In this document: piece after piece, positions 26,459-37,848 of the stretch
Position numbering within the stretch: the stretch's first letter is position 1
Layout: the number at the start of each line of letters is the position of its first letter
NCBI GenBank assembly: GCA_001563335.1
Contig: LRSL01000055.1
Location: 1-64,000, forward strand
Direction of reading: 5' to 3'
DNA length: 64,000 nt
Source of the DNA: Candidatus Thorarchaeota archaeon SMTZ1-45
GTDB taxonomy: Archaea; Asgardarchaeota; Thorarchaeia; Thorarchaeales; Thorarchaeaceae
The notes under the pieces: generated by a model
What the model saw: the letters and a program-made list of their open reading frames with translations, nothing else
What the model was told of the DNA's origin: nothing
Database searches by the model: none
Program-made: the position numbers and the translations under genes

Positions 26459-27196
26459 TTGACAGAGTTTCCAAACCTGGTTGTAGTTCTAGTTGGTCCA
26501 GAGAATCCCGGGAACACCGGGTCTGTGGCCAGAGCTTTAGGGAACTTCGGAGTGAACGAGCTAAGAATAGTTGGGGAAGACCATCGACAGGACCAATTTG
26601 CTCAGATGCTCTCAGTGCACGCTCATGAGATTTTGAACAATGCGGGAGTTTTTAAGAGCCTAGGTTCTGCCCTTGCTGATATTGACTTAGCGTGGGCTGC
26701 AACTGCAAGAACAGGTGGAAATCACAGCGTCACAAGAGCCTTGGTGCCTCTCTCTGAATTGCCTGATCCAAATGCGCTTGAAGGTCGTATTGCACTAGTC
26801 TTTGGAAGAGAGAGTACAGGATTGTTCAACGATGAGATAGCGTTGTGTGACCTTGCCTTTACAATTCCAGCTTCGAAGGAATATCCAAGTCTAAACCTCA
26901 GTCATGCGGTGTCAATTGTACTTTATCATCTGTTCTCAAAATTCGCTCCAGAAGAGCCACGAAGGCCCTATGAGACGCGAGCAGCAACATATCAGGAACG
27001 AGAACAGGTGTACAAATTTTATGATGCTATAGTGGATCATTTGAACCTAAAGGAGCATAAAATCCCAATCGCGAAACAGGTCTTCAGAAATCTTCTAGGA
27101 AGGGCCTATATGACAGGGAGAGAGGTCTCTACACTTACTGGAGTCATCAGACGAATCAGTGAACTTGTAAATGAGCGCGAAAAGCCTGAAGATTAG
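26459..27196 (+). CDS. trmJ: TrmJ/LasT SPOUT RNA methyltransferase
   Basis: PGNTGSVARAL.NFG, ALVFGRE..GL, YPSLNLSHAV. Confidence 0.9.
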   Translation: MTEFPNLVVVLVGPENPGNTGSVARALGNFGVNELRIVGEDHRQDQFAQMLSVHAHEILNNAGVFKSLGSALADIDLAWAATARTGGNHSVTRALVPLSELPDPNALEGRIALVFGRESTGLFNDEIALCDLAFTIPASKEYPSLNLSHAVSIVLYHLFSKFAPEEPRRPYETRAATYQEREQVYKFYDAIVDHLNLKEHKIPIAKQVFRNLLGRAYMTGREVSTLTGVIRRISELVNEREKPED

Positions 27197-27732
27197 TTCC
27201 CATAGCCCATCTTACGTTTCAGTTCAGGGTCAATCTTGTCGAAGACTATCTTGCATGGAGTAGGCATCTTTGGTGCTGCTTTCTTTAGGGCGGTCATTGC
27301 TGGACCTATGTGTCGAGGGTTCACTCTAACTGTAATCAACGGTTGTCCTGGTCGAACTCGTGCGGCGAGCCCTATTACTTTGCCCCATGCCCTTCGCATT
27401 CCATCCTGAACACGGTCTGCACCAGCTCCGGAGATCATCTTATTCTCACGGAGATAGTGGTAGGGTTTGACACGCATCCGCAGGTGATAGTTCTGTCTAC
27501 CTACCTTCTTGGTCATCTCCCTGTTGGAGGCAATACGTGCAGCCTCAAGGGCTTGATGTCTAATCTGGCATCTTTCAAGACCAACCAGGGATAGCTCAAC
27601 CTCAAATACACCGCTTGCGTCACCCATGTCAAAGCTAGTCAATCTGCTAGGGGGCTGTCTATGAATATACCGCCGCCTGACAAATGGCTGTCTATCACAT
27701 TCTCTGTAACAATGACCTGGTCGCTTTCCCAT
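27193..27732 (-). CDS. rpl10e: 50S ribosomal protein L10e/uL16
   Basis: RP.HCYR, ALEAARI, LRENKM..GAGADR..DGMR.AWGK. Confidence 0.96.
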   Translation of the reverse strand: MGKRPGHCYRECDRQPFVRRRYIHRQPPSRLTSFDMGDASGVFEVELSLVGLERCQIRHQALEAARIASNREMTKKVGRQNYHLRMRVKPYHYLRENKMISGAGADRVQDGMRRAWGKVIGLAARVRPGQPLITVRVNPRHIGPAMTALKKAAPKMPTPCKIVFDKIDPELKRKMGYGN

Positions 27733-27816
27733 AATCATCACCAATTGGTCCTTTAGCCTAGTAGCTGGCTAGAACTACTCGAAACCGCGGGGATTCCAAT
27801 AAAAGGATTATGGACT
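27708..27816. repeat. Direct repeat copy 1 (rpl10e first codons plus upstream region)
   Basis: About 80% identical by hand alignment (89/109, 2 gaps) to 34893-34999. Confidence 0.85.
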
Positions 27817-27905
27817 AGACCTTGAAGAAAAGATTGCAATTCGAGAAGGGAGCATTGGTTCGATTCGTCTAGTCAAATGATGACGATAACTGCAGGACTA
27901 GCCCA

Positions 27906-28871
27906 CTAGAGGAGAATAATAGAGCTGCTAAGACCTAAGATGAGAAGTATTATTAGTATTAGGATAATTTCAAGCCACGTTCTATGTTCAATTATCTTTC
28001 TCTTCACATAATGTCTTGTTATTCTGATTTTCTTGTACTGCGCATAGCTGTAAACGGTTAGCGTAGCTGAGAACAGTATTATCCCCGCGGTGACGATTAT
28101 TCTATTTGTTGGGTAATCCCAGAAGCCATTATTGATTGTTCTTAACACTTCAGCTGATTCGGTAACGTGGTTCAACGGATCATATACAACAACCTTCAAA
28201 ACGTACACAGAGTTTTCGTATCGAGTGGTGTCCCAGAGTAGTACACCCTCCAATGTGGTCCCATTGATATCAATCGTTTCATGACAATTAAATGATGATG
28301 TAGCAACAACTGTGTCATTAGCATGGAGTTCGACCATGTAAATAAAAAATCCCTCATCATGCACCCTGAAGCTCACATTTGTGATACCGGTAAGTGGTCC
28401 ATCAGGAATGTGAGTTTCTTGGATTACCGGGCCTTCAATATCCCTTCCAACACGACCCTCAATTGTCGCTGCTGAGTCTGCAAAAGGGACACCGCTAACC
28501 TTGGAAAACCAGACATACCAAGTGTCACTATGTGTTGCTTGGAAGAAAACCATGTTCAACCGACCCTCTTGTGCAGGATAACTATAATCCTCATGCTTAG
28601 TAGTTGGCTCACTCCCATTCATGATGGCATCTTGACCTGCTTGGTCAACAATGAAGAAGTAAATACCTTCTCCATCGATAATCCGAAAACGCGCATATAG
28701 GAGCTCGTCCTGGGTGAAATATAATGAAACATTGTGATACTCCCCGGGGTTTATTGTGAGTAACTCCATGTCCTCAACAAGGTCAGCCGTAACCTCTCCT
28801 GATTCGCAGAAGACTAGACAACATATAACCAAAATACAAAGAATAACCGTCCTACCTGTTGGCAAACACAA
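27906..28871 (-). CDS. Secreted/membrane-anchored protein with Ig-like beta domain
   Basis: N-terminal hydrophobic signal; D..GP.I..P..G..NVSF.V.D..WDT..Y.L.V..YD Ig-like pattern; two C-terminal TM segments. Confidence 0.7.
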   Translation of the reverse strand: MCLPTGRTVILCILVICCLVFCESGEVTADLVEDMELLTINPGEYHNVSLYFTQDELLYARFRIIDGEGIYFFIVDQAGQDAIMNGSEPTTKHEDYSYPAQEGRLNMVFFQATHSDTWYVWFSKVSGVPFADSAATIEGRVGRDIEGPVIQETHIPDGPLTGITNVSFRVHDEGFFIYMVELHANDTVVATSSFNCHETIDINGTTLEGVLLWDTTRYENSVYVLKVVVYDPLNHVTESAEVLRTINNGFWDYPTNRIIVTAGIILFSATLTVYSYAQYKKIRITRHYVKRKIIEHRTWLEIILILIILLILGLSSSIILL

Positions 28872-28962
28872 TCCTCCTACGGAAATAAGAACACATCAGC
28901 TAAATTATCTTTCGACCTCAAAAAAGGAGCTTCTCATTCACCTGTAGTATCAGCCCGCCATA

Positions 28963-29019
28963 CGTTCCTACACGGATGTGTGGCTTCTCGATGATCGGTA
29001 TCTCAAACAACCGGAGTAC
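28963..29019 (+). repeat. Island repeat, copy A
   Basis: 48/57 identical to 32442-32498. Confidence 0.8.
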
Positions 29020-29056
29020 CATCATCTTTCATAAGGATTAACGTACTAACATCATT

Positions 29057-29701
29057 GTGGTTTCAGCTGTTCTCTTGATTCTTGGTCTACTGGTTATCGT
29101 ACTACGAGTCAGCAACATTCACGATGGACAAGCATGTTCTGAAAGAATCTATGACTCCCTATATGACTCATGCACAACACTAAGTTCTGACTCCCCAGTA
29201 GTTGGTCCTAATATCAGCTGGTTTCCTGATCCGAATGTCACTATGGCCATCGATGGCTATTACAATGGTCAGAACCAAGAAATCTTCGATTATTGGGTTT
29301 GGGTAAATGATTCTCTAGGAGTTGACTCTGTGATCTTTCGTTTCAAGTGGAGTAACGACGAAAAGTGGCTGAACAGAACTACTGGATTAATAGAGGGGGA
29401 TGAGTTTCATGGGAGGTACAAAGGGAATCTAACTTGGCCAGCTCCCGGTGGTGGCAATTTTCAGTTCAAGGTATTCGCCAACAATACGTTAGGATACTGG
29501 AATGAAACTAGTCCTATGTCTGTTTGGTTTGGCTACTTGTACTGGAATCCGATTTACACCCCACACTTCTGGATTCTGTTCGTGATTCTTCCACTGGTGT
29601 CATTGATTGGTCTAGTTGGAGTTTGGAAGCTTAGACAAAAACGCACGTTATCTTGGACGCATGTGACATCAGCCCACAAAGGATTATGGACTGTGACCTG
29701 A
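29057..29701 (+). CDS. Membrane-anchored extracellular protein (Ig-like domain, many N-x-S/T sequons)
   Basis: Signal-like N-terminus; V.DS.GVDSV..FKVFANNTLG.WNET; C-terminal TM followed by basic residues. Confidence 0.7.
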   Translation: MVSAVLLILGLLVIVLRVSNIHDGQACSERIYDSLYDSCTTLSSDSPVVGPNISWFPDPNVTMAIDGYYNGQNQEIFDYWVWVNDSLGVDSVIFRFKWSNDEKWLNRTTGLIEGDEFHGRYKGNLTWPAPGGGNFQFKVFANNTLGYWNETSPMSVWFGYLYWNPIYTPHFWILFVILPLVSLIGLVGVWKLRQKRTLSWTHVTSAHKGLWTVT

Positions 29702-29827
29702 GAACAAAGAAATATATCGGGTAAATTCTCAAGTGATTACCACCTTCCTCAAAGAGCATAAATTGATTCATGTCAATGTATTCTGCGTGGCGTGTGCAAG
29801 CACGATTCAGATTTTGGGGGATAAAGA

Positions 29828-30607
29828 TTGAATCCAATTGAGATTAGAAATCTTGTAAAGTCCTATGGTCATTTGATTGCTGTCAATAACCTATCTTTCG
29901 ATGTTCGTGAGGGTGAAATCTATGGTCTACTAGGACCAAACGGTGCTGGGAAGACAACAACCTTGAAAGTTTTGATGGGACTTTTAGATCCTGATTCAGG
30001 AACTGTCAATGTCTTTGGAATCAGTTCGGTTTCTGATCCTATTGAGGTTAAAAAAAGAGTAGGTTATGTTCCTGAAGAACAACTTCTCTATAATTCGTTA
30101 ACATCTCGAGAAATCCTTGAGTTCGTAGCGTCAATTCGTGGCCTCGATTATTTTCATGCAAAAAACCGAGTGACAGAGATGGCTCGTGCACTTGATTTTA
30201 CAAGTCACTATAATAAACCAATTGTGACATTATCTCAAGGGAATAAACAGAAGGCAATGCTTCTCATAGCAATGCTACATGCTCCTGATTTGCTGATACT
30301 CGATGAACCTTTCTCTGGTTTGGATGTTAGAACAACGCGGATAATGAAGGACGTTATTCGTATTCACACAGAAAAAGGTGGATCAGTATTATTAAGTACA
30401 CACATAATGGAGATGGCTGAGGGTCTCTGTGATCGTGTTGGTATTATTGATGAAGGTGTTTTGGTAGCAGAAGGAACTCTGGAGGAGCTTCGGGATCAAG
30501 CAGAATCTGAAGGAGCTACGCTGGAGAATGTATTTCTGAAACTAACAGGTGAAGAGGAGGAAGTCAGAGAGGGCGTCGATGCATTACGGGAGGCTTTGGA
30601 CAATTGA
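29828..30607 (+). CDS. ABC transporter ATP-binding protein (exporter type)
   Basis: GPNGAGKTT, LSQG, LILDEP, STH. Confidence 0.95.
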   Translation: MNPIEIRNLVKSYGHLIAVNNLSFDVREGEIYGLLGPNGAGKTTTLKVLMGLLDPDSGTVNVFGISSVSDPIEVKKRVGYVPEEQLLYNSLTSREILEFVASIRGLDYFHAKNRVTEMARALDFTSHYNKPIVTLSQGNKQKAMLLIAMLHAPDLLILDEPFSGLDVRTTRIMKDVIRIHTEKGGSVLLSTHIMEMAEGLCDRVGIIDEGVLVAEGTLEELRDQAESEGATLENVFLKLTGEEEEVREGVDALREALDN

Positions 30608-32250
30608 ATTTTCGTGAGCGTTGGAAGATTGCAGGTACCATCGCTCAGGAAATTAGATTTCATGGAATGCTAGAAGCCAACCCTTCCAATCTTTCTAGAA
30701 TCAAAGAGAAACCTGAACGTGTTGTTAATCAAATTAAGAGAAGTGCATCATGGAATGCAATCCTGACGGGGTTTGTCATCATTATGATTGGTTTTCTGAT
30801 GGTGGCGTCAGTATTATTCCTTGGAATACCTGGTGAACGCGAACTGAATTTTGCTATATCGCTTGGAATCTTCCTTGGTCTGGGTTTTGTAATAATATTC
30901 TTTGTAAATCTGACCTCCGCAGCCGGATTCTTCAATGCAGGTGCTATGCTATTACCTTCTACATTGCCATTTAGCAGACCCGATCTGGAGGGATTGATGA
31001 CCTTGGTCTTTGTACGAATATTCGTAGCTCCCTACGTCCTGCTTCTGACTATTTTTCCTTTAATAACATCTCTTGCTTTTGGGATTGTCACAGGAATCTT
31101 TGTTCTTGGAGCATTAGTAACAACGCTGATTTTATCTCTAGGTGCCTTAATCAGAGCAGCGGGATGGTTTCATCAGAAATCGCAGTCTGGTGACGAGTCA
31201 GCATTTTCGGTCATCATTCGAGTTGGGGCAGGCATAGGAATGACTCTCGGTATTGTCATGGCTTACGGCGCTATGAATTTTGTACCATATATTGTTGAAT
31301 TTATCATCTTTGTTTCAACAGCTTTTAATCCGGAAGTTCTGAGTATTTTTGCTCTAATTTTCCCATTCTCCTTTGGATTCGTTGGGGCAATGTTGACATA
31401 TGGTCTTGTATTCTCTCTCCCAACAAACACTATTGCTATTGCTGCATCAATCATCTATGTTTTTCTAAGCCTGCGAAGTTATCGTTCAAGCGGTCGAATA
31501 TTGCGTTCTCTTGCACTAGGCGGTGTGCCCATGGCAGTAGCATCCACTATAAGGCCAATCGATTTGCATATCTCTTCTTCAATTCCTGCTCTCATTAGAA
31601 AAGATATCCGAGTCGCAACTCGGAGTCTTGGTTCAATTATGCTCCTTGTGTTTCCTTTTCTTATGATCTTTGTAATCCTTCCTACTTTATTCATCGGATA
31701 CACTGAATCTACCGTTATACGGAGTTTTTCGGTTTTAATGGTGGTGGGATATGCTACAATGTTTGCAGGCCTCTCAATAATGGGGCTACTTGGGCTTGAT
31801 ACACAGGGAGCGTCAGTGTATGAAGGATTACCACTTCAAACAAGACAAGTTCTTAACTCTAAGATAACCATATTCGCCATTTCTTATGCGGCTACATTAT
31901 TGATTGTTTTCGTATTACTCCTATCTAGTCGCTTAATTTCACCATTTCTTCTATTCATACCATTATTTCAACTACCTTGTGGGTATTCAATTGGTGGAGC
32001 TGTAGGTGGTGTAATTTATAGGATACGTGGTGGTGGTCGAGTAACTTCAGTGAATCTTGTAGGTGACCAGGCAGTATCATTCATGGCCCTGATAGTAAGT
32101 GCAATAGTTGGCTTTCTACCTTTGATTGGTTATTCTGTTATCTTATTGCAAACTGGGAGTCATTTGCTATCAATCCTCTCCCAACTGTCAATATCGTTGC
32201 TTGAAATGGTTCTGTTACTAATTGGTATACCCCGTGTCTTGAGAGATTAA
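30604..32250 (+). CDS. ABC exporter permease (~12-13 TM)
   Basis: Overlaps ATPase stop; two hydrophobic halves with L.TLP and ..LP motifs and KD.R linker. Confidence 0.82.
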   Translation: MNFRERWKIAGTIAQEIRFHGMLEANPSNLSRIKEKPERVVNQIKRSASWNAILTGFVIIMIGFLMVASVLFLGIPGERELNFAISLGIFLGLGFVIIFFVNLTSAAGFFNAGAMLLPSTLPFSRPDLEGLMTLVFVRIFVAPYVLLLTIFPLITSLAFGIVTGIFVLGALVTTLILSLGALIRAAGWFHQKSQSGDESAFSVIIRVGAGIGMTLGIVMAYGAMNFVPYIVEFIIFVSTAFNPEVLSIFALIFPFSFGFVGAMLTYGLVFSLPTNTIAIAASIIYVFLSLRSYRSSGRILRSLALGGVPMAVASTIRPIDLHISSSIPALIRKDIRVATRSLGSIMLLVFPFLMIFVILPTLFIGYTESTVIRSFSVLMVVGYATMFAGLSIMGLLGLDTQGASVYEGLPLQTRQVLNSKITIFAISYAATLLIVFVLLLSSRLISPFLLFIPLFQLPCGYSIGGAVGGVIYRIRGGGRVTSVNLVGDQAVSFMALIVSAIVGFLPLIGYSVILLQTGSHLLSILSQLSISLLEMVLLLIGIPRVLRD

Positions 32251-32369
32251 ATAGAAGATATTGTTGTCAAACTGTACACATGGATTCTTTCTTGCTGTAG
32301 AGATGATTATCGTTGCTGAATTGGTCTGGTGGTGTCGATTAATTGAGAATGGATGAGATGTGTTTCATG

Positions 32370-32498
32370 CGAGAATAAATCGCCCTACTTTGTATTAATC
32401 CCGAGAGAGAGTCACACTGGTAGCACCAGTGGATCGAGTCGCGTTTCTACACTGATGTGTGATATCTCGGTTATCGGTATCTCAAATAACCGGAGTGC
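32370..32498 (+). repeat. Island repeat, copy B (decayed coding-like remnant)
   Basis: 5' half is 43/57 identical to 34073-34127; 3' half is 48/57 identical to 28963-29019. Confidence 0.75.
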
Positions 32499-32613
32499 AG
32501 GCTTGCTCGAACATGCTTACAATTCAGATGAACAGTACACATCAACAACCTTCCAACATTTTATCAACATCCCAAGCGGGATATAGACGAATGATATGAG
32601 AACGTGACATTGA

Positions 32614-33072
32614 ATGATAATTATCACTGTGGTCACACTACTAGCATGGAGATTACTCAGACGCTTTAGAAAGCAGTATTCACTTGCCATATTTCTCGTT
32701 GTGATAGCTATAACCTCATTTCTCGTCATGTACGATGTTAAGACTGCTGGAGTGTTTCGAGAGAACATAACGCCGGATTATGACATTGTTCACTACAACA
32801 GTTTCGTATTGTTCCCATTTGTTGTTCAGAAGCATCACAACTGGTCATCGCAGGAGTACTTCTATCGAGTTCTCCTCTTGGGTCGCGAAGGGAGTGTGAA
32901 GTATGAGGAAACTCCAAAGCCAGACCAGAGCGAGTACATGCATTTGTCCCTCGTAGTGATCTCTGCAATATTCTGTGTTCTAGGGTTCCTCTCCGCTTCA
33001 TTGGTAATTATCGTTGTTGAGTTTGTTAATTGGTATCGATTCAGGAAGGGAGTGCGGTGCGAAGAAAGGTAG
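32614..33072 (+). CDS. Hypothetical membrane protein
   Basis: 152 aa; 2-3 TM segments. Confidence 0.6.
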   Translation: MIIITVVTLLAWRLLRRFRKQYSLAIFLVVIAITSFLVMYDVKTAGVFRENITPDYDIVHYNSFVLFPFVVQKHHNWSSQEYFYRVLLLGREGSVKYEETPKPDQSEYMHLSLVVISAIFCVLGFLSASLVIIVVEFVNWYRFRKGVRCEER

Positions 33073-34037
33073 TGGTAATATCAATAGCAGTAATTATCCT
33101 AGTCCTAATCCTTGTCTATTTTCGACCTCCTTCTTATCATACGACACCAGAAGGAATTCCAGTTTTAGATTCCGTCTTTGCAGAATTAGTTGACCAAGAT
33201 CCAGATCCGGTTGTTTTCCCACAGTTTCCGGTTGTTGAAACTCCATTATCTATCACGATGGATTGCGACTACAGCCAATTTGAAAAAGTGAATGAGAGCA
33301 TTGCACTGTTAGCATCGATTGAATTCAGCTTGAAAGTCTGGTATCTGACGGAATATAATCTGACAATAGACACAGATTGGACTATTCTTGATGACGAAAT
33401 TTGGCGTTTCAGATTCCATGATGATAGTGTAGATGTCTATGTGTCAGTGAATTCGATATCGGGGAAAGTTTGTGGTTTTTCTTCCGTATGGCCTATTGGT
33501 GAATCACCATTCTTGCCAAATACATCGGAAAACCAATTTGCCAACTCTTCAGAACTGGAGCAATTAGCAATCGATTTCTTCAATCAATTCAACTACTCAT
33601 TATCACCTCATGCAAGATATATTGGTCCTAATCTAAGATATGACTATGCCTTTCATCATGACGTTTTTGTGATTTCATTTTCTAACGTAGTTAATAATAT
33701 ATTAATCGAAAGTGGAATACATCTTCGTCTTGATGTTGAAGCAAATGCAATCTTAAGTTTCAGTTATACTTGGGTACATGTCGATGCCCTTCCAATAGAG
33801 AATATAATTTCCCTTGAACAAGCTAGTCAATATGCACGGAGTTATCTAACAGAAGAAGCTAATATTTCGCAATTTACAATAAATACAGTAGAACTTCTTT
33901 TCGACAGGACTTGGACACCAGTAGGCGACCTTTATCGACTAGGCTGGATTGTTTCCATTGACTCTGAATATATAGTAGGGTTAAAGATTGATGCAAAAAG
34001 TGGATTCATCTATGATATTGGATACAAGGTAGTCTAG
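33057..34037 (+). CDS. Signal-anchored extracellular protein with PepSY/YcdB-like repeats
   Basis: RRK plus hydrophobic anchor; repeated motifs V.VNSISGKV, LDVEANAI, IS.EQA..YA..W.V..KIDAKSG.I. Confidence 0.65.
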   Translation: MRRKVVVISIAVIILVLILVYFRPPSYHTTPEGIPVLDSVFAELVDQDPDPVVFPQFPVVETPLSITMDCDYSQFEKVNESIALLASIEFSLKVWYLTEYNLTIDTDWTILDDEIWRFRFHDDSVDVYVSVNSISGKVCGFSSVWPIGESPFLPNTSENQFANSSELEQLAIDFFNQFNYSLSPHARYIGPNLRYDYAFHHDVFVISFSNVVNNILIESGIHLRLDVEANAILSFSYTWVHVDALPIENIISLEQASQYARSYLTEEANISQFTINTVELLFDRTWTPVGDLYRLGWIVSIDSEYIVGLKIDAKSGFIYDIGYKVV

Positions 34038-34072
34038 TCTGCTGAAACTAATAGCAGAATTTTCGTTTTCTA

Positions 34073-34127
34073 CGAGAATAAACCATCCAATCTTGTATCA
34101 ATTCCGAAAGATTCACACTGGTGGAAC
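34073..34127 (+). repeat. Island repeat, copy C
   Basis: 43/57 identical to 32370-32426. Confidence 0.65.
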
Positions 34128-34252
34128 TGGCAGTCTGGCATAAAAACATCCATGTCTATTCCACTTGTATATTACACAATATCTTCAACTCTTCTGATAT
34201 TATTAAAAAATCTTAAAGTCAAAAAGGGGTTATACATAATTGGGGATTTGAT

Positions 34253-34861
34253 TTGGATGAAAATCAGCCTGAGCAGGTCAGGAATAGAGTAATTGAGAGT
34301 ATTAAAACGCAGAGAGCAATTCTTGTGCGGCGTGTTGCAATCATACTACTGCTTCTTTATTTTGCCGTTATGGTGGATGTTGGAAGTTACGTCTACGGGA
34401 CTGTCGATCATGGGTTCTATTTTACATATCTTGGATATGACATATTCCCCATACCGTATCAATGGGCGGTCCTTCTACCTGTAATAACTGAACTGGACCC
34501 ACTCAGATCATTCATCTTCTTCACTTTCATCGGGCAAGGGATATGGATTGTCTGGGCGTTATTAGGTATCATTTACATTGTGATGCCACTTGTTCATTGG
34601 GCATACAACATCAAGAGAGAACCAGATTCGGAAATTATGCAAGTTCGATCAGATAAGGTTGAGAAAATAGGAGTCATCACAGGGATAGTTGCAGTTCTCT
34701 CGGTATATCTTTCAGTTGTAACTTTCAGGATCAATCTCGTGAATTATGGTCTTCTGCCACTAGTATTAGTATCAAGCTTATCAATCGTGGTCATATGTTT
34801 CCTAGTAATTGAAATTTTAAATATGATTAGAAATAAGACAAGGAAAATTCCAGTCACTTAG
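34253..34861 (+). CDS. Hypothetical membrane protein
   Basis: 202 aa; about 4 TM segments. Confidence 0.65.
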   Translation: MDENQPEQVRNRVIESIKTQRAILVRRVAIILLLLYFAVMVDVGSYVYGTVDHGFYFTYLGYDIFPIPYQWAVLLPVITELDPLRSFIFFTFIGQGIWIVWALLGIIYIVMPLVHWAYNIKREPDSEIMQVRSDKVEKIGVITGIVAVLSVYLSVVTFRINLVNYGLLPLVLVSSLSIVVICFLVIEILNMIRNKTRKIPVT

Positions 34862-34892
34862 TGATGAATCATTTAGAAACACTAGATCAATC

Positions 34893-34999
34893 AACAATGA
34901 TCTGGTTCTCTCCCATAATCATCACAAATTGGTCTTTTAAACTAGTATCTAGTCAGAACTACTCGAACCAACGGGGAGTCAGTACAATGATTATGGACT
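34893..34999. repeat. Direct repeat copy 2 (degenerate rpl10e 5' end/promoter)
   Basis: Matches 27708-27816; a 1-nt deletion destroys the rpl10e frame (MGENQIIVD*). Confidence 0.85.
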
Positions 35000-35028
35000 G
35001 TGATCTGATTGCATCTGACATTTGTAAA

Positions 35029-35541
35029 CTACATATGTCGAAGGCACACTTCGAATTGTGTTTGAAAGACAGCTGAGCCGGTATCTAAGTCAATGAAACG
35101 AAGTGCCCAAATGTATGCTCCGATAAAGCTTACACCAAAATAGCCAGTGGAGTATTCTGTGCCTGTCAAATCCCAACCGCCTCCACTACCATATCCCTCA
35201 AATGAATCTATCTTGTCAGAGTCGTTGAGTGACATAAAACTGGTTAATGTCATATGTGCATAACCAAATTCTAGTATGAAATTATCTTCATTTTTGTTAT
35301 GACTAAATAAGACACCCTCAACACCAACCCCGTACTCCAGATGGTCATCATCAATAATGAACTCCCTACAGAACCATTCCCCGTTGCTTAAACTGATACT
35401 TTCTCCGGGACTCGAATATATGATCTCTCTTTGTCCCAAATACATTGGAATGATACTAGGGCCTACTAATATTAGAAATAGCACTGAGAGGACACCAATA
35501 GAAAACAAGATTCGTCTTCTTTTTGTTGTTTCTTCCACCAA
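35029..35541 (-). CDS. Hypothetical signal-anchored protein
   Basis: KRRR plus TM segment, then a beta-rich domain. Confidence 0.6.
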   Translation of the reverse strand: MVEETTKRRRILFSIGVLSVLFLILVGPSIIPMYLGQREIIYSSPGESISLSNGEWFCREFIIDDDHLEYGVGVEGVLFSHNKNEDNFILEFGYAHMTLTSFMSLNDSDKIDSFEGYGSGGGWDLTGTEYSTGYFGVSFIGAYIWALRFIDLDTGSAVFQTQFEVCLRHM

Positions 35542-35623
35542 GATTCATCCTCTGGGTTTCTTATCTTCACTGATTTTTGTAAAATTCGTTCTACTGGATA
35601 AATAGCTTTCAAAACTTATGTAC

Positions 35624-35655
35624 TCTTGTCCAGGTCTTGTCCAAGACTTGGACAA
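35624..35655. promoter_or_regulatory. Operator-like inverted repeat TTGTCCAAG-A-CTTGGACAA with an extra TCTTGTCCA half-site
   Basis: Perfect 9-bp arms at 35637-35655, between divergent genes. Confidence 0.5.
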
Positions 35656-35769
35656 TCTCTTCATAATAGATGTTATTTGTGATCATGCATAATGACGTCA
35701 AATGAGTAGTCGTGTTTGAAACGAGATAGAAGATATTGCTTAAGAACAAAAGATGGTTATCGTTGATAC

Positions 35770-36162
35770 ATGAAAGAAGAGCTCATAGCACCCTGTGGCA
35801 TGAACTGTGCAATATGTGTTGCATACTTTGGATATAGAATGGATGGAGGCAGGAGAAAGACTGCATGTAGTGGTTGTAGAATTAAGAACAAGGATTGTGC
35901 CTTTGTCAAAAAGCAATGTGAACTTCTTTCCAAACACCAGATTGAGTATTGTTTCGAGTGCGATCACTTTCCTTGTGAGCAGTTAAAGAAACTTGACAAG
36001 CGCTACAGAATTAGATTCAATATGAGCAGTATTGAGAACTTGGAGAACATAAGAGATAATGGAGTTAGAAAGTTCCTCAAACAGCAAAGGACAAGATACA
36101 GATGTCCTGAATGCGGTGGCACTATATGTGTTCACACCAACAGATGCTATAGTTGCTCTTGA
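35770..36162 (+). CDS. DUF3795-family Cys-rich protein
   Basis: IAPCG.NC..C, C.GCR, YCFEC..FPC..L, CPECGG.IC.H..RC..C. Confidence 0.85.
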   Translation: MKEELIAPCGMNCAICVAYFGYRMDGGRRKTACSGCRIKNKDCAFVKKQCELLSKHQIEYCFECDHFPCEQLKKLDKRYRIRFNMSSIENLENIRDNGVRKFLKQQRTRYRCPECGGTICVHTNRCYSCS

Positions 36163-36218
36163 AATCAAGAGATTGAAAAGGAGTACTGATACAAGATATA
36201 GAGAAGGAGTATTGAATT

Positions 36219-36437
36219 ATGGGAAAGAAAGGAGTTGCAGCTGGTGTTCTGACCTTCCTTGTAGGGTTGGTGTTAGTCATAGATGACCTCCACGACTTTG
36301 TCGCAGGGACTGATTTTCTTCACTTCCTGCCAGACTTTGACCCCTATATCATCTTTGGATTCCAGCTACACCATCTCTACATTGGTATTGTATTAATCCT
36401 GATTGGACTAGCCATTGCCATGAAGTATGATGAGTAG
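36219..36437 (+). CDS. Small two-TM membrane protein
   Basis: GGAG RBS; F.LHHLYIG motif. Confidence 0.65.
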   Translation: MGKKGVAAGVLTFLVGLVLVIDDLHDFVAGTDFLHFLPDFDPYIIFGFQLHHLYIGIVLILIGLAIAMKYDE

Positions 36438-36449
36438 CGCACTTGAAGT

Positions 36450-36854
36450 CTACTTCTCACTCTTCACACGAGGCTCAGCGACGACCTGAATTGGATTACC
36501 CTCAGGGTCCTTCAGATTGAAGTAGGAAACCATGTCAGGAATATCCATGATGTCAGATGTGTCTAGACCTTTACTTTCGAGGTATGTCTTGCAAGCATCG
36601 AGATCATCAACATCCAAAGTAAGAGTTCCTGAACCTTGACGATGTTCACCATCGCGAATGAGGTTGATACCAAGCTTGGCGCCCCTTGCAGGGAGTGCAA
36701 ACTCAGCCCAACCGACTTCAGCACCTCCGTCCCAGGTTATGTCAAAACCCATGATTTCAGAGTAGAACTTTTTCGCACGATCAAAGTCCTTCACTTGATA
36801 TTGAAAATATACGGATCCTTCTTTGTAGGGCATTGGCCATTTCTTATCGCTCAT
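36450..36854 (-). CDS. VOC/glyoxalase family protein
   Basis: VKDFDRAKKFY.E..GF, VDDLD, KDPEGN.IQ. Confidence 0.88.
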   Translation of the reverse strand: MSDKKWPMPYKEGSVYFQYQVKDFDRAKKFYSEIMGFDITWDGGAEVGWAEFALPARGAKLGINLIRDGEHRQGSGTLTLDVDDLDACKTYLESKGLDTSDIMDIPDMVSYFNLKDPEGNPIQVVAEPRVKSEK

Positions 36855-36912
36855 AACAATCATGCTATTCAGGTATAATTGTGATTTAACTATTGTGAAC
36901 ACAGTAGAGGTT

Positions 36913-37848
36913 CTATAAACCTTGAAGGCATGCGATTGCAATCAATGGGAAAAGGATAGTTGCATCACCAATAACGGTCTCAAAGTTCGCTTCTGTCTGT
37001 ACTTTTTGCCAGGATATCCCCTCATCAAGGGGTGCACCACCAAGACTACCACCCTCAGGTCGGTCAAGTGTGATTTGAACAGCCATGTCGAGACCCCCCC
37101 TAAGAATAGTAGAACCCATGGTGAAGTGCTTTGTGAGACCTCCTCCAAGCATGATGGCTCCGGTTTTTTTCTGTTCTGTCACAATTTTACCAAGAATTCT
37201 GAGATCCTTCACAAAGTCAAGGGCAAGATTCTTGGTTGTGCTGTAAGTATAGAGATGAAATCCTAACATGGAGTCCATGAGACCGGGAGAGAATATCGGA
37301 ATATTATGAAGAGCAGCCTGTTTGACGATGGAGTTGTCATCTTCGATTGTCATGCCAAGTTCAGTAAGAAATTCACTTGGAGCAAGAGTTGTCAGTTTCT
37401 CATCAGAGAGTCTGTCGAGGAATCCATAGATACCCTTCTCGAAGAGCTCAAAGTCCTTTTCGTGCACGAAAATGTCTGCTATTCGTCCCATTCCAGCCTC
37501 GCGAAGTTCAACATCATCCTTTGAGGGCGGAACTCTGAAGTGGCTGCCTCCATATGCCTCGACAAGATCATGTACAATGTTTGCGCCACTTGTGACGATA
37601 GCTTGGATGAAACCCTTCTCAACAAGATGACGAACAATGTTTCGTAGACCTCCTGGAACCATAGGTCCAGACATAGAGAGGAATGTAAAGCAGTCCGTGT
37701 CGTCAAACATGCGCTTTGTAATTTCAGCAGCTCTTCCCAGTCTTCCTGCTCCAAGAACACCCACCTTTTCCATGGCTTTGAGATAATCAGGGATTTCCTT
37801 GATCTTAGTAGGGTCTACATGGTTGACCTTGTCCAAATCAGTCACCAA
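36913..37848 (-). CDS. dys: Deoxyhypusine synthase
   Basis: SG.MVPGGLR, TSGANIVHD, GGG..KH, GSLGGA..DEGISWQK, GDATI.FP. Confidence 0.92.
   Translation of the reverse strand: MVTDLDKVNHVDPTKIKEIPDYLKAMEKVGVLGAGRLGRAAEITKRMFDDTDCFTFLSMSGPMVPGGLRNIVRHLVEKGFIQAIVTSGANIVHDLVEAYGGSHFRVPPSKDDVELREAGMGRIADIFVHEKDFELFEKGIYGFLDRLSDEKLTTLAPSEFLTELGMTIEDDNSIVKQAALHNIPIFSPGLMDSMLGFHLYTYSTTKNLALDFVKDLRILGKIVTEQKKTGAIMLGGGLTKHFTMGSTILRGGLDMAVQITLDRPEGGSLGGAPLDEGISWQKVQTEANFETVIGDATILFPLIAIACLQGL

What the first reader, a model, noticed from the sequence alone, without database searches (positions are those of the whole stretch)
27708..34999. ~7 kb island bracketed by a degenerate duplication of the rpl10e promoter and first codons
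Seen: 27708-27816 and 34893-34999 align at about 80% over ~108 bp. They cover the upstream region and first ~8 codons of rpl10e; the distal copy is frameshifted. Between them lie only membrane/secreted hypotheticals and an ABC exporter. Inference: an old integration into the 5' end of an essential ribosomal-protein gene, in which the incoming DNA restored the promoter and start codon and displaced the original. That is an unusual attachment site compared with tRNA 3' ends. No integrase remains, so this may be a recombination-fed variable locus.
Basis: partly seen in the sequence, partly recalled or inferred. Interest (0 to 1): 0.7.

Follow-up and report, generated by a model that had tools for sequence, protein, structure and literature searches.

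The report
Gene-cassette stack at the rpl10e promoter
The repeat is real: a dead spare copy of the rpl10e promoter and first eight codons marks the far end of a stack of swappable accessory-gene modules that related Asgard (Thorarchaeota) archaea build and exchange at the edge of this ribosomal-protein promoter, with no recombinase gene in sight.

Summary
Observation confirmed. 27708-27816 and 34893-34999 are 82% alike, the only two copies in the 3.5-Mb genome (E 3e-22). Copy A is the working promoter, leader and codons 1-8 of rpl10e. Copy B is decayed. Independent contigs from other studies bridge both junctions, so it is not a misassembly.

Interpretation partly supported. The 7.2 kb is not one old element. 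It is a composite of at least four modules inside a stretch (rpl10e to deoxyhypusine synthase) that differs in every related species (2.7-13.8 kb). Inside the island and in relatives the joints are a 16-base word, CAGTCCATAATCCTTT, the far edge of the rpl10e promoter, always co-oriented with rpl10e. It gave 32 matches in 28 genus genomes against 1 for a reversed control. Modules left and right of it are re-assorted.

The ABC-exporter module, bounded by the word, is 91-93% identical in six species whose flanking housekeeping genes are 76-83% identical, so it moved horizontally. Long joints like A/B occur in three lineages and all stop at codon 8/9.

No recombinase was found in 176 ORFs, and no tyrosine, serine or IS110-type recombinase or Cas1 in this genome. 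The mechanism is inferred. This scan noted the same rpl10e word before in a relative, and similar promoter-anchored arrays elsewhere in Thorarchaeota.

The parts
27193..27732 (-). rpl10e (ribosomal protein L10e/uL16), intact
   Evidence: Pfam Ribosomal_L16 E 1.3e-29. ATG at 27732 fixed by alignment with 20 relatives.
27708..27817 (-). Copy A: working promoter (core word plus T-rich box), leader with hairpin, GGTGA, ATG and codons 1-8 of rpl10e
   Evidence: 90-94% identical to the same region of the nearest relatives.
27802..27817 (-). Core word A (TAGTCCATAATCCTTT, 1 mismatch), the far edge of the conserved promoter
   Evidence: Conservation among relatives starts here.
27906..28871 (-). i1: 321-aa predicted membrane/secreted protein, no family
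   Evidence: Homolog (55% aa) in G010 lies next to the i7 homolog. A variant joint 27814->28965 that skips it is seen in single contigs of X1-X3 with sides of only 25-29 bases.
28963..29047 (-). Fragment of the locus-specific non-coding module (28963-29017) followed by a possible decayed core (29032-29047, 10 of 16); tentative
29057..29701 (+). i2: 214-aa ORF, no family; its end runs into core M
   Evidence: Contigs of three runs carry 23 extra bases after 29062, so its start is uncertain.
29678..29693 (-). Core word M, exact 16 of 16, an internal joint
   Evidence: Its left flank is orthologous to the rpl10e-ABC spacer of G022, and its right flank is unrelated to the promoter.
29694..32253 (+). 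ABC ATPase (29828-30607) plus 548-aa permease (30604-32250): a discrete mobile module
   Evidence: Pfam ABC_tran E 1.1e-30. 91-93% nucleotide identity in G022, G018, G008, G021 and G019, with matches ending at the core words.
32254..32268 (-). Decayed core word just after the permease stop
   Evidence: Alignment by eye with the intact word at the same place in G018, G019 and G021.
32271..32517 (-). Non-coding module of about 250 bases. In G005 its start lies between two cores; in G022 a core bounds it distally and only a decayed core lies on its rpl10e side. The expected distal core is missing here.
   Evidence: Found only at this locus in the genome. No significant fold (z -0.15).
32518..34892 (+). 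i5 (32614-33072), i6 (33030-34037), i7 (34253-34861): membrane proteins, no family
   Evidence: i5 relatives in G013 and G042; i7 relative (71% aa) in G010.
34893..35000 (-). Copy B: decayed spare of core word (34985-35000, 2 mismatches), promoter, leader and codons 1-8
   Evidence: The nhmmer profile match ends at profile position 120, one base past codon 8.
35029..37848 (.). Distal part of the locus. p1 (35029-35541, -) and DUF3795 (35770-36162, +) are still variable. Then the conserved flank: 72-aa membrane ORF (36219-36437, +), glyoxalase-fold protein (36450-36941, -), deoxyhypusine synthase (36913-37848, -).

Best explanation
Copies A and B are the outermost pair of joints in a promoter-anchored stack of gene modules, a kind of 'additive' flexible genomic island. 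The stack lies between rpl10e and the deoxyhypusine synthase gene in one clade of a Thorarchaeota genus.

Shown: the interval differs in content in every species. A 16-base word at the far edge of the rpl10e promoter recurs inside it, always in the orientation of rpl10e. Sequence blocks left and right of the word are re-assorted between species. The ABC-exporter module bounded by the word has moved between species recently. The 7.2 kb is therefore a composite of at least four modules: i1, i2, ABC-permease and i5-i7, plus a non-coding module.

Inferred: donor or circular DNA carrying one copy of the word recombines with the resident copy in a Campbell-type insertion. In the long form it carries the whole promoter-to-codon-8 segment. 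Each insertion therefore rebuilds an intact promoter beside rpl10e and leaves a spare copy on the far side. Copy B is such a spare, now decaying.

The enzyme is not encoded in the island or found in this assembly. My split is about 55% for a site-specific recombinase supplied in trans by an unbinned element, and about 30% for host recombination on short identity.
For: Variable interval: 2.7-13.8 kb between rpl10e and the deoxyhypusine synthase gene in the 14 genomes where both lie on one contig, with conserved flanks (SRP54, methyltransferase, DRG GTPase, SpoU, rpl10e on one side; glyoxalase, deoxyhypusine synthase, p5 on the other).

Near-empty forms in metagenome contigs: about 50 bases between the synthase gene and the word in L135; about 320 bases between glyoxalase and the word in L136 and L139.

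The word: 32 matches with at most 1 mismatch in 20 of 28 genus genomes, against 1 for the reversed control. 28 of the 32 lie on contigs that carry locus markers. 10 of 28 genomes hold 2 or more at the locus. In this genome the exact 15-mer occurs only at 27802-27816 and 29678-29692.

Precise joints: 38 words give 30 left and 11 right flank families. The ABC-upstream flank is joined to 4 different right flanks, a small-gene end to 3, and the MFS start to 3 different left flanks. Homology starts at the first base after the word.

Horizontal transfer: the ABC-permease module is 91-93% identical to G008, G018, G021 and G022, versus 76-83% for SRP54, DRG, SpoU, rpl10e, glyoxalase and the synthase gene in the same genomes. 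SRP54 is 92-94% identical in protein yet only 82-83% in DNA. The high-identity matches end at the words.

Long joints: three truncated promoter copies (this window, G004 contig C18, metagenome L160) end at profile positions 120, 119 and 124, that is at codon 8/9.

Circular permutation: in G010, the relative whose rpl10e is most similar, the homologs of i1 and i7 (the two end genes of this island) are convergent neighbours 126 bases apart.

Strain variation at core A in public runs: loose ends at 27778 and 27818 and a joint 27814->28965.
Against: No recombinase of any kind is linked to the word. None appears among 127 ORFs from 21 relatives' intervals or 49 ORFs from 16 metagenome loci. The genome has no PF00589, PF00239, PF01548 or PF01867 match, though it is only 87.7% complete and plasmids or viruses are usually not binned. 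Only 8 of 28 genus genomes have any tyrosine recombinase, none on a locus contig, and six such loci hold no word. All 38 matches to the 16-mer in viral contigs are unrelated.

No circular form or empty site of this particular island was seen. Many block boundaries in the interval do not coincide with a word. One expected word is missing at about 32517.

Among 53 metagenome loci only L160 has a second word, so extra words are confined to one subclade and could descend from few events.

About half of the extra words lie 60-95 bases upstream of a co-oriented gene (MFS, TPR, a small membrane protein). A role as a promoter piece is therefore not excluded.

The recurrent stop at codon 8/9 is not explained by recombination at the word.
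Confidence: 0.6

Rival explanations
1. One integrative element used a site inside the 5' end of rpl10e (crossover at codon 8/9). It carried its own promoter and first codons to keep the gene alive, and later lost its integrase.
For: Three long joints in three lineages stop within 5 bases of each other at codon 8/9. In G004 the displaced copy groups with G022a, as does the gene body, while the attached promoter groups with G013. Bacterial integrative elements are on record at the ends of ribosomal-protein genes, rarely at 5' ends, with a direct repeat that holds the gene end (passages of PMC5704250).
Against: The island is a composite with an exact internal word and decayed ones. Its ABC module is a separate unit in five relatives. 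There is no integrase in this island, in the L160 island or in the assembled part of the G004 one, and none in the genome. The sequences beyond the three break points are not homologous.
Confidence: 0.15
2. Nuclease-driven 'homing'. A selfish endonuclease gene cuts naive rpl10e alleles near codon 8/9. Repair from an allele that carries the island copies in the island together with a replacement promoter and gene start, leaving the old start as copy B.
For: It explains the shared inner boundary in three lineages, and why the spare copy resembles the local lineage in this window and in L160. The 6.2-kb L160 island encodes an HNH endonuclease (Pfam HNH E 3.5e-10; PHROG HNH E 3.3e-28).
Against: Only 1 of the 3 islands has a recognisable nuclease. 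None is found in this window. It does not explain the 16-base joints.
Confidence: 0.1
3. Purely local history. A tandem or segmental duplication of the rpl10e 5' region occurred within this lineage, followed by decay, deletions and ordinary gene turnover, with no targeted insertion.
For: A and B are each other's near relatives in codons 5-8 and the Shine-Dalgarno region. Unequal exchange can leave a truncated gene start.
Against: Random break points would not hit codon 8/9 three times. It does not give exact 16-base joints with unrelated flanks. It does not give a module 10-15 points more similar between species than its flanks. In G004 the two copies belong to different lineages.
Confidence: 0.05
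4. Copy B and the extra words are working regulatory DNA (spare promoters or a regulator's binding sites), kept by selection rather than scars of recombination.
For: In G004 the spare copy is intact and lies about 100 bases upstream of a co-oriented gene of at least 447 aa. Words precede the MFS gene, the TPR gene and a small membrane gene by 60-95 bases.
Against: Copy B here has lost its T-rich box and faces the 3' end of a convergent gene, as does the L160 copy. The extra words end before the T-rich box. Several face the 3' ends of convergent genes. RNA data could not be examined.
Confidence: 0.05
5. Assembly artefact (chimeric join at a repeat).
For: Several relatives' contigs break at or near the word (G010 C25, G004 C61, G002 C54).
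Against: Contigs from runs of other studies cross both junctions with 0-2 differences.
Confidence: 0.01

Closest known systems
Tandem accretion of integrative elements and decayed 'cis-mobilizable elements' (CIMEs) at one attachment site in streptococci (passages of the review PMC5704250)
   Same: Stacks of units are separated by direct repeats that contain the end of a housekeeping gene, ribosomal-protein genes included. The target gene stays intact. Many units have no recombination genes of their own.
   Different: Here the anchor is a promoter edge and 5' end in an archaeon. The short repeat is 16 bases. No integrase-bearing member of the stack was found in 28 genomes and 53 metagenome loci. 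How units travel between cells is unknown.
Additive flexible genomic islands next to tRNA genes in marine bacteria (recalled from the work of Rodriguez-Valera and Lopez-Perez; no call)
   Same: The chromosomal position is the same in all strains. Different accessory cassettes (transporters, surface proteins) are added one beside another, punctuated by repeats of the anchor gene's end.
   Different: The anchor is not a tRNA gene, and no integrase is present.
Integrons and integrase-less attC clusters; archaeal integrons (PMC9668308, seen as search listing and start of abstract only)
   Same: A fixed platform beside a promoter, an array of exchangeable cassettes, and cassettes shared across species.
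   Different: There is no IntI and no folded attC-type site. Cassettes are often multi-gene, in both orientations and with their own promoters. The joint is a plain 16-base word identical to the platform site.
Campbell-type integration and imprecise excision of lambda-like elements (textbook knowledge, recalled)
   Same: A circle with one homologous segment inserts and ends up flanked by two copies of it. Genes at the two ends of the insert are neighbours in the other form, as i1 and i7 are in G010.
   Different: No phage functions and no integrase are present, and the homologous segment is the host's own promoter and gene start.
Asgard mobile elements described so far: tRNA-targeting elements and aloposons of Heimdallarchaeia (PMC8813620, passages); integrated elements of Atabeyarchaeia with an 11-base attachment motif and tyrosine integrases (PMC11529989, passages)
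   Same: Short attachment motifs and site-specific integration in Asgard chromosomes.
   Different: Those elements carry integrases and use tRNA genes or an 11-base motif. None is reported at a ribosomal-protein promoter in the passages read.

Membership tests
Integron | Integron integrase (IntI, tyrosine recombinase) beside the platform | tested here: not met
   PF00589: 0 matches in the genome, and none among 127 + 49 ORFs of relatives' and metagenome intervals.
Integron | attC sites: imperfect palindromes at each cassette end | tested here: inconclusive
   No Rfam family at gathering score. The non-coding module beside some joints folds no better than shuffles (z -0.15). No dedicated attC model was run.
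Integron | Mostly single, promoterless, co-oriented ORF cassettes read from a platform promoter | tested here: not met
   Modules hold 1-3 or more genes in both orientations, most diverging from or converging on rpl10e.
Integrase-borne integrative element at a gene end (IME/ICE/provirus type), including CIME accretion | [quoted passage not shown] | tested here: met
   Copies A and B, G004 B' and L160. rpl10e is intact.
Integrase-borne integrative element at a gene end (IME/ICE/provirus type), including CIME accretion | An integrase in at least some members at the same site | tested here: not met
   None in 28 genus genomes' locus contigs or 53 metagenome loci. Unbinned elements could not be searched.
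Integrase-borne integrative element at a gene end (IME/ICE/provirus type), including CIME accretion | Several units in tandem sharing the same repeat | tested here: met
   2-3 words per locus in 10 of 28 genomes, all co-oriented.
Xer/dif site with elements exploiting it (IMEX, pdif modules) | Host Xer recombinase (XerA in archaea) | tested here: not met
   PF00589 is absent from this genome and from 20 of 28 genus genomes, including ones 93-97% complete.
Xer/dif site with elements exploiting it (IMEX, pdif modules) | 28-bp site of two 11-bp inverted arms around a 6-bp spacer (PMC2958812 passages) | tested here: not met
   By eye only 6 of 9-10 arm positions are symmetric, and the right arm varies between species.
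Casposon | Cas1-type casposase, terminal inverted repeats, 14-15-bp target duplication | tested here: not met
   PF01867: 0 matches. No inverted ends were seen at module borders by eye. Only the length of the repeat is similar.
Free-standing homing endonuclease with a carried copy of the host gene end | Nuclease gene inside the insert | tested here: not met
   None in this window. An HNH gene is present in the L160 island only.
Additive flexible genomic island | Same locus in all relatives, different cassettes, repeats of the anchor at the joints | tested here: met
Additive flexible genomic island | Anchor is a tRNA gene with an integrase nearby (as usually described; recalled) | tested here: not met
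   No tRNA in the window. The anchor is the rpl10e promoter, and there is no integrase.

The most novel reading that the evidence does not exclude
Thorarchaeota possess an undescribed gene-capture system. Recombinase-less cassettes are inserted at, and exchanged between species through, a short word at the upstream edge of strong housekeeping promoters. An enzyme supplied in trans (or a promoter-linked host process) always rebuilds the promoter. rpl10e is one of several such anchors; earlier notes of this scan name rpl13e, initiator tRNA, uvrB, an acyl-CoA dehydrogenase gene and the 23S trailer. The long A/B joints that stop at codon 8/9 would be a second, gene-internal recombination point of the same system.
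Probability: 0.35. Interest if true: 0.85.

Novelty: new variant of a known kind. Interest (0 to 1): 0.6.

Why it matters
If the reading holds, Asgard archaea have a way of stacking and trading accessory genes (transporters, surface proteins, possible defence genes) at fixed chromosomal platforms that is neither an integron nor a tRNA-linked island. It leaves no recombinase behind. That bears on how gene flow works in the archaeal lineage closest to eukaryotes. It also gives a concrete, testable site: a 16-base word and a codon 8/9 break point that could be used to fish for the missing enzyme.

On the practical side, the locus explains why assemblies of these genomes break next to rpl10e. It also marks a stretch where metagenome bins mix strains.

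Four literature searches (and 33 for Xer/dif) found no paper describing a cassette array at an archaeal ribosomal-protein promoter. Papers of subscription journals are not covered by that library.

Tried and rejected
- **dif/Xer idea.** The word plus the T-rich box looks weakly palindromic, but the genus largely lacks tyrosine recombinases and the arms are not conserved. Rejected.
- **Casposon-like target duplication.** There is no Cas1. Rejected.
- **Viral or plasmid carrier of the word.** All 38 exact matches in viral contigs are unrelated by blastn and tblastn.
- **Integrase contigs of relatives.** Six loci fetched, with no word at up to 3 mismatches.
- **Off-locus words.** G004:C55, G020:C415 and G022:C56 (1 mismatch each) look like chance matches; the latter two appear to lie in what looks like a shared coding sequence. 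G015:C90 is an exact intergenic copy that I could not explain.
- **Shared origin of the three long joints.** After the break this window and G004 share only about 8 of 10 bases, and the neighbouring genes are unrelated. Undecided.
- **Which of A and B is native in this genome.** Both fall in the same promoter clade. Undecided.
- **Automatic clustering of flanks.** The first run used a setting that was too loose and merged nearly everything. It was redone.
- **Consensus fold of the rpl10e leader.** RNAalifold found no pairs on 14 sequences.
- **The 140-base module as a structured RNA.** Not supported.
- **Distant relatives.** The word is not upstream of rpl10e in the seven genomes from other genera examined, nor in a second subclade of the genus.
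- **Expression.** Only DNA contigs were on offer, so nothing can be said.
- **Parts of the stretch with no contig cover in single runs.** No meaning is attached to these.

Full report
**1. The observation**

A search of the organism's own assembly (3.54 Mb, 119 contigs, 87.7% complete, 5.8% contamination) finds 34893-34999 as the only significant second copy of 27700-27820 (82%, E 3.4e-22). The remaining 10 matches are 14-22 bases long with E of 0.37 or more.

Both copies are on the minus strand. Copy A is continuous with rpl10e (27193-27732; Ribosomal_L16, E 1.3e-29). The listed ORF starts at a TTG at 27744, but alignment with 20 relatives puts the start at the ATG at 27732. Read in the sense of the gene, copy A holds:
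- a 16-base word (27817-27802);
- a T-rich box (a probable TATA box, by general knowledge of archaeal promoters);
- a leader of about 60 bases with a hairpin;
- GGTGA, the ATG, and codons 1-8.

Copy B has 2 mismatches in the word. Its T-rich box is changed from TTTTATT to TTGTACT, and it lacks one base in codon 4. Similarity stops one base after codon 8.

The window has no tRNA gene and no Rfam family at gathering score.

**2. Not a misassembly**

Only assembled contigs of public runs could be laid, not raw reads.
- The B junction is crossed by a 7.4-kb contig of X1 (possibly the source sample), by a 2.6-kb contig of X2 (33908-36544, 2 differences) and by a 579-base contig of X3 (34475-35053).
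- The A junction is crossed by X1 (27394-28998) and X2 (27504-27857).

X2 and X3 belong to other studies. The same table shows strain variants right at core A:
- a contig that follows the window up to 27818 and then continues with other sequence (X3);
- one that joins the window at 27778 from another leader type (X1);
- single low-depth contigs in X1-X3 that join 27814 to 28965, skipping i1. Their shorter sides are only 25-29 bases, so this is a hint only.

**3. The setting in relatives**

I did not test that label.

rpl10e was found in 38 of 41 genomes searched, and in 22 of 24 of the genus draw. In 14 genomes with both flanks on one contig the order is SRP54, small methyltransferase, DRG GTPase, SpoU methylase, rpl10e, then 2.7-13.8 kb of differing content, then glyoxalase-fold protein, deoxyhypusine synthase and p5.

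Metagenome contigs add near-empty forms:
- L135: the synthase gene ends about 50 bases from the word.
- L136 and L139: glyoxalase ends about 320 bases from the word.

The island of this window therefore lies in a hypervariable interval that extends beyond copy B to about 36218. GC is lowest (0.365-0.39) from 33 to 36 kb, across copy B, so composition does not follow the repeat.

**4. The 16-base word**

In the alignment of rpl10e upstream regions, conservation among relatives begins exactly at the word. Extra copies of the word, without the rest of the promoter, lie inside the variable interval and always on the strand of rpl10e.
- Across the 28 genomes of the genus, the word with at most one mismatch occurs 32 times in 20 genomes, against once for the reversed control.
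- 28 of the 32 lie on contigs that carry markers of this locus.
- Ten genomes have two or three at the locus.
- In this genome the exact 15-mer occurs twice, at 27802-27816 and 29678-29692. Copy B adds a third copy with 2 mismatches.
- The word is not upstream of rpl10e in the seven genomes from other genera examined, nor in a second subclade of the genus. Extra copies are confined to the subclade whose main site reads CAGTCC.

**5. The word is a joint where modules are re-assorted**

I clustered the 30 bases on each side of 38 words (four off-locus matches were left out).
- This gave 30 left families and 11 right families, two of which are the rpl10e promoter itself.
- The spacer upstream of the ABC gene is joined through the word to four different right-hand partners: the rpl10e promoter in G022, i2 in this window, an MFS gene in G018, and another sequence in G008.
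- The end of a small gene is joined to three right-hand partners.
- The MFS start is joined to three different left-hand partners.
- Homology between genomes begins at the first base after the word (for example G005 against G018, positions 1-1242 of both segments).
- At least nine unrelated right flanks abut the word at the same base, in front of the T-rich box. Decay of longer duplications would not give that.

**6. A module that moved between species**

The ABC ATPase plus permease unit (29694-32253) is 91-93% identical in DNA to G008, G018, G021 and G022. SRP54, DRG, SpoU, rpl10e, glyoxalase and the synthase gene of the same genomes are 76-83% identical to this window. SRP54 is as conserved in protein (92-94%) as the ABC ATPase (95%) but only 82-83% identical in DNA. 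The difference therefore lies at silent positions.

A genus-wide DNA search finds the high-identity unit in 6 of 28 genomes, always at this locus. The matches end at the words: G022 starts one base after its main word, G018 runs from word to word, and G008 ends at its word. Its position in the stack differs: next to rpl10e in G022, behind other modules here and in G018 and G008.

In this window and in G022 the word behind the permease stop has decayed (about 32254-32268). A non-coding module of about 250 bases follows. In G022 it ends with a word; here it does not.

**7. Anatomy of the 7.2 kb**

Read from rpl10e outward:
- core A;
- i1;
- a module fragment and a possible decayed word (29032-29047, tentative);
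- i2;
- exact word M;
- the ABC-permease unit;
- a decayed word;
- the non-coding module;
- i5, i6 and i7;
- copy B.

It is therefore a composite of at least four gene modules, not one element. The non-coding module occurs only at this locus in the genome. It recurs one to three times in relatives' intervals, co-oriented. It shows no significant fold. I cannot say what it is.

**8. Long joints**

A profile of the main site (155 positions, ATG at 96-98) finds truncated second copies in three places:
- copy B here (positions 6-120);
- G004 contig C18 (4-119);
- metagenome contig L160 (4-124; its working copy lies 6.2 kb away).

All three stop at codon 8/9. The G004 and L160 copies are intact.
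- In G004 the spare lies about 100 bases in front of a co-oriented gene of at least 447 aa, whose relatives in other genomes sit elsewhere.
- In L160, as here, the spare faces the 3' end of a convergent gene.
- What follows the break is unrelated in the three cases.
- The leaders belong to three different lineage types.

I therefore take them as independent events at one hot spot. A single old junction spread and homogenised by recombination is not excluded.

In G004 the spare groups with G022a (83.6%), as does the rpl10e body (84-87%). The attached promoter groups with G013 (80.8%). In this window A and B fall in the same clade and the direction is open.

**9. Circular permutation**

G010 has the most similar rpl10e (93% in protein). 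There, homologs of i1 and i7, the genes at the two ends of this island, are convergent neighbours 126 bases apart next to the conserved 72-aa gene. Genes that flank an insert being neighbours in another form is what insertion of a circle predicts. It is one observation and other paths are possible.

**10. The missing enzyme**
- No integrase, resolvase or transposase family appears among 127 ORFs from the intervals of 21 relatives' loci or 49 ORFs from 16 metagenome loci (of 84 ORFs listed I sent the 49 from loci that carry the word or the closest rpl10e).
- The genome has no match to Phage_integrase, Resolvase, IS110 transposase or Cas1. It has five TnpB-like genes on other contigs.
- Only 8 of 28 genus genomes have any tyrosine recombinase, never on a locus contig. 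The six such loci fetched hold no word.
- The L160 island has an HNH endonuclease and a weak, sub-threshold primase-like protein.
- Metagenome bins usually lack plasmids and viruses, so absence here is weak evidence.

**11. How it most likely works**

Shown: a variable interval, a co-oriented word at module joints, re-assortment at the word, one module transferred between species with the word at both ends, and long joints with a common inner end.

Inferred: DNA carrying one copy of the word (or of the whole promoter-to-codon-8 segment) recombines with the resident copy. An intact promoter is thereby always restored beside rpl10e and a spare is left distally. Spares then decay, as copy B has and as the words behind the permease have.

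The exactness of the joint in front of the T-rich box in at least nine unrelated flanks makes me favour a site-specific enzyme acting in trans (about 55%) over host recombination on 16-21 identical bases (about 30%). The codon 8/9 hot spot may be a second site of the same enzyme, the cut site of a homing nuclease, or the result of selection. I cannot tell which.

**12. Comparison with what is known**

The behaviour matches tandem accretion at one attachment site with decayed, recombinase-less units (CIMEs), and integration at the ends of housekeeping genes including ribosomal-protein genes (passages of PMC5704250). It also matches additive flexible genomic islands (recalled).

It fails the defining tests of an integron, a Xer/dif system and a casposon (see the membership table). 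Described Asgard elements use tRNA genes or an 11-base motif and carry integrases (passages of PMC8813620 and PMC11529989).

**13. Earlier notes of this scan (AI notes, leads only)**

One note on another genome of the genus reports the same word at the rpl10e promoter edge as the joint of a cassette array, with no XerA/dif and no recombinase. I reached the same reading before seeing it, and tested it here. Other notes report similar arrays in Thorarchaeota at rpl13e (with a tyrosine recombinase beside the site in relatives), initiator tRNA, uvrB, an acyl-CoA dehydrogenase gene, nrdD and the 23S trailer. I did not test these.

New here:
- the long A/B type of joint and its common end at codon 8/9;
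- the identity contrast that shows transfer of the ABC module;
- contig support from other studies;
- the near-empty sites;
- the i1-i7 adjacency in G010.

**14. Verdict**

It is a new variant of a known kind (an additive island or accretion array with a promoter anchor and no recombinase). Interest 0.6.

Noticed in passing
G000 contig C86:64178-64711 (outside the window): A second rpl10e gene, 72% identical in protein, in a different context (preceded by a coding gene). G022 and G003 also have two. This is either two related organisms in one bin (contamination 5.8%) or a paralog.
   Followed up: partly
window 29062: Contigs of three runs (X1, X2, X3) carry 23 extra bases after 29062, just inside the start of ORF i2. 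The window may have a deletion or a strain variant there, and the frame of i2's start is uncertain.
   Followed up: no
window 32361-32501 and 28963-29017; one to three copies in relatives' intervals: A non-coding module of about 140 bases, co-oriented with rpl10e. It is found only at this locus in the genome and often lies directly beside a core word. No significant fold and no coding potential were seen.
   Followed up: partly
window 27745-27800 and the same region in relatives: The rpl10e leader carries a hairpin in every clade, but with different stems and registers. RNAalifold gave no consensus on 14 sequences. It could be a feedback operator; this was not tested.
   Followed up: partly
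L160:3841-9435 (metagenome contig): The 6.2 kb between the spare and the working rpl10e promoter holds an HNH endonuclease with a CGNR zinc finger, a weak primase-like protein and three proteins of no family. It may be an integrated small replicon.
   Followed up: partly
L061 (G015 contig C90) 3063-3078: An exact copy of the 16-base word away from the rpl10e locus. It is intergenic, about 62 bases upstream of a small membrane-protein gene. Unexplained.
   Followed up: partly
whole genomes of the genus: 20 of 28 genomes, including ones 93-97% complete, have no tyrosine recombinase at all, so no XerA was detected. G020 has seven, three of them side by side on one small contig.
   Followed up: no
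window 29828-30607: The ABC ATPase matches PADLOC models mad3 (E 1.7e-25) and AriA. This is probably generic ABC/AAA similarity. The 548-aa permease has no family in Pfam, NCBIfam or PADLOC.
   Followed up: no
contig ends in relatives: G010 C25 (starts 12 bases before the word), G004 C61 (ends 77 bases after it), G002 C54 (starts inside rpl10e): Assemblies of several relatives break at or next to the word. This fits strain mixtures differing at this point.
   Followed up: no
window 36219-36437: A 72-aa membrane ORF next to the glyoxalase gene is conserved in nearly all relatives. It marks the true distal edge of the variable interval.
   Followed up: no
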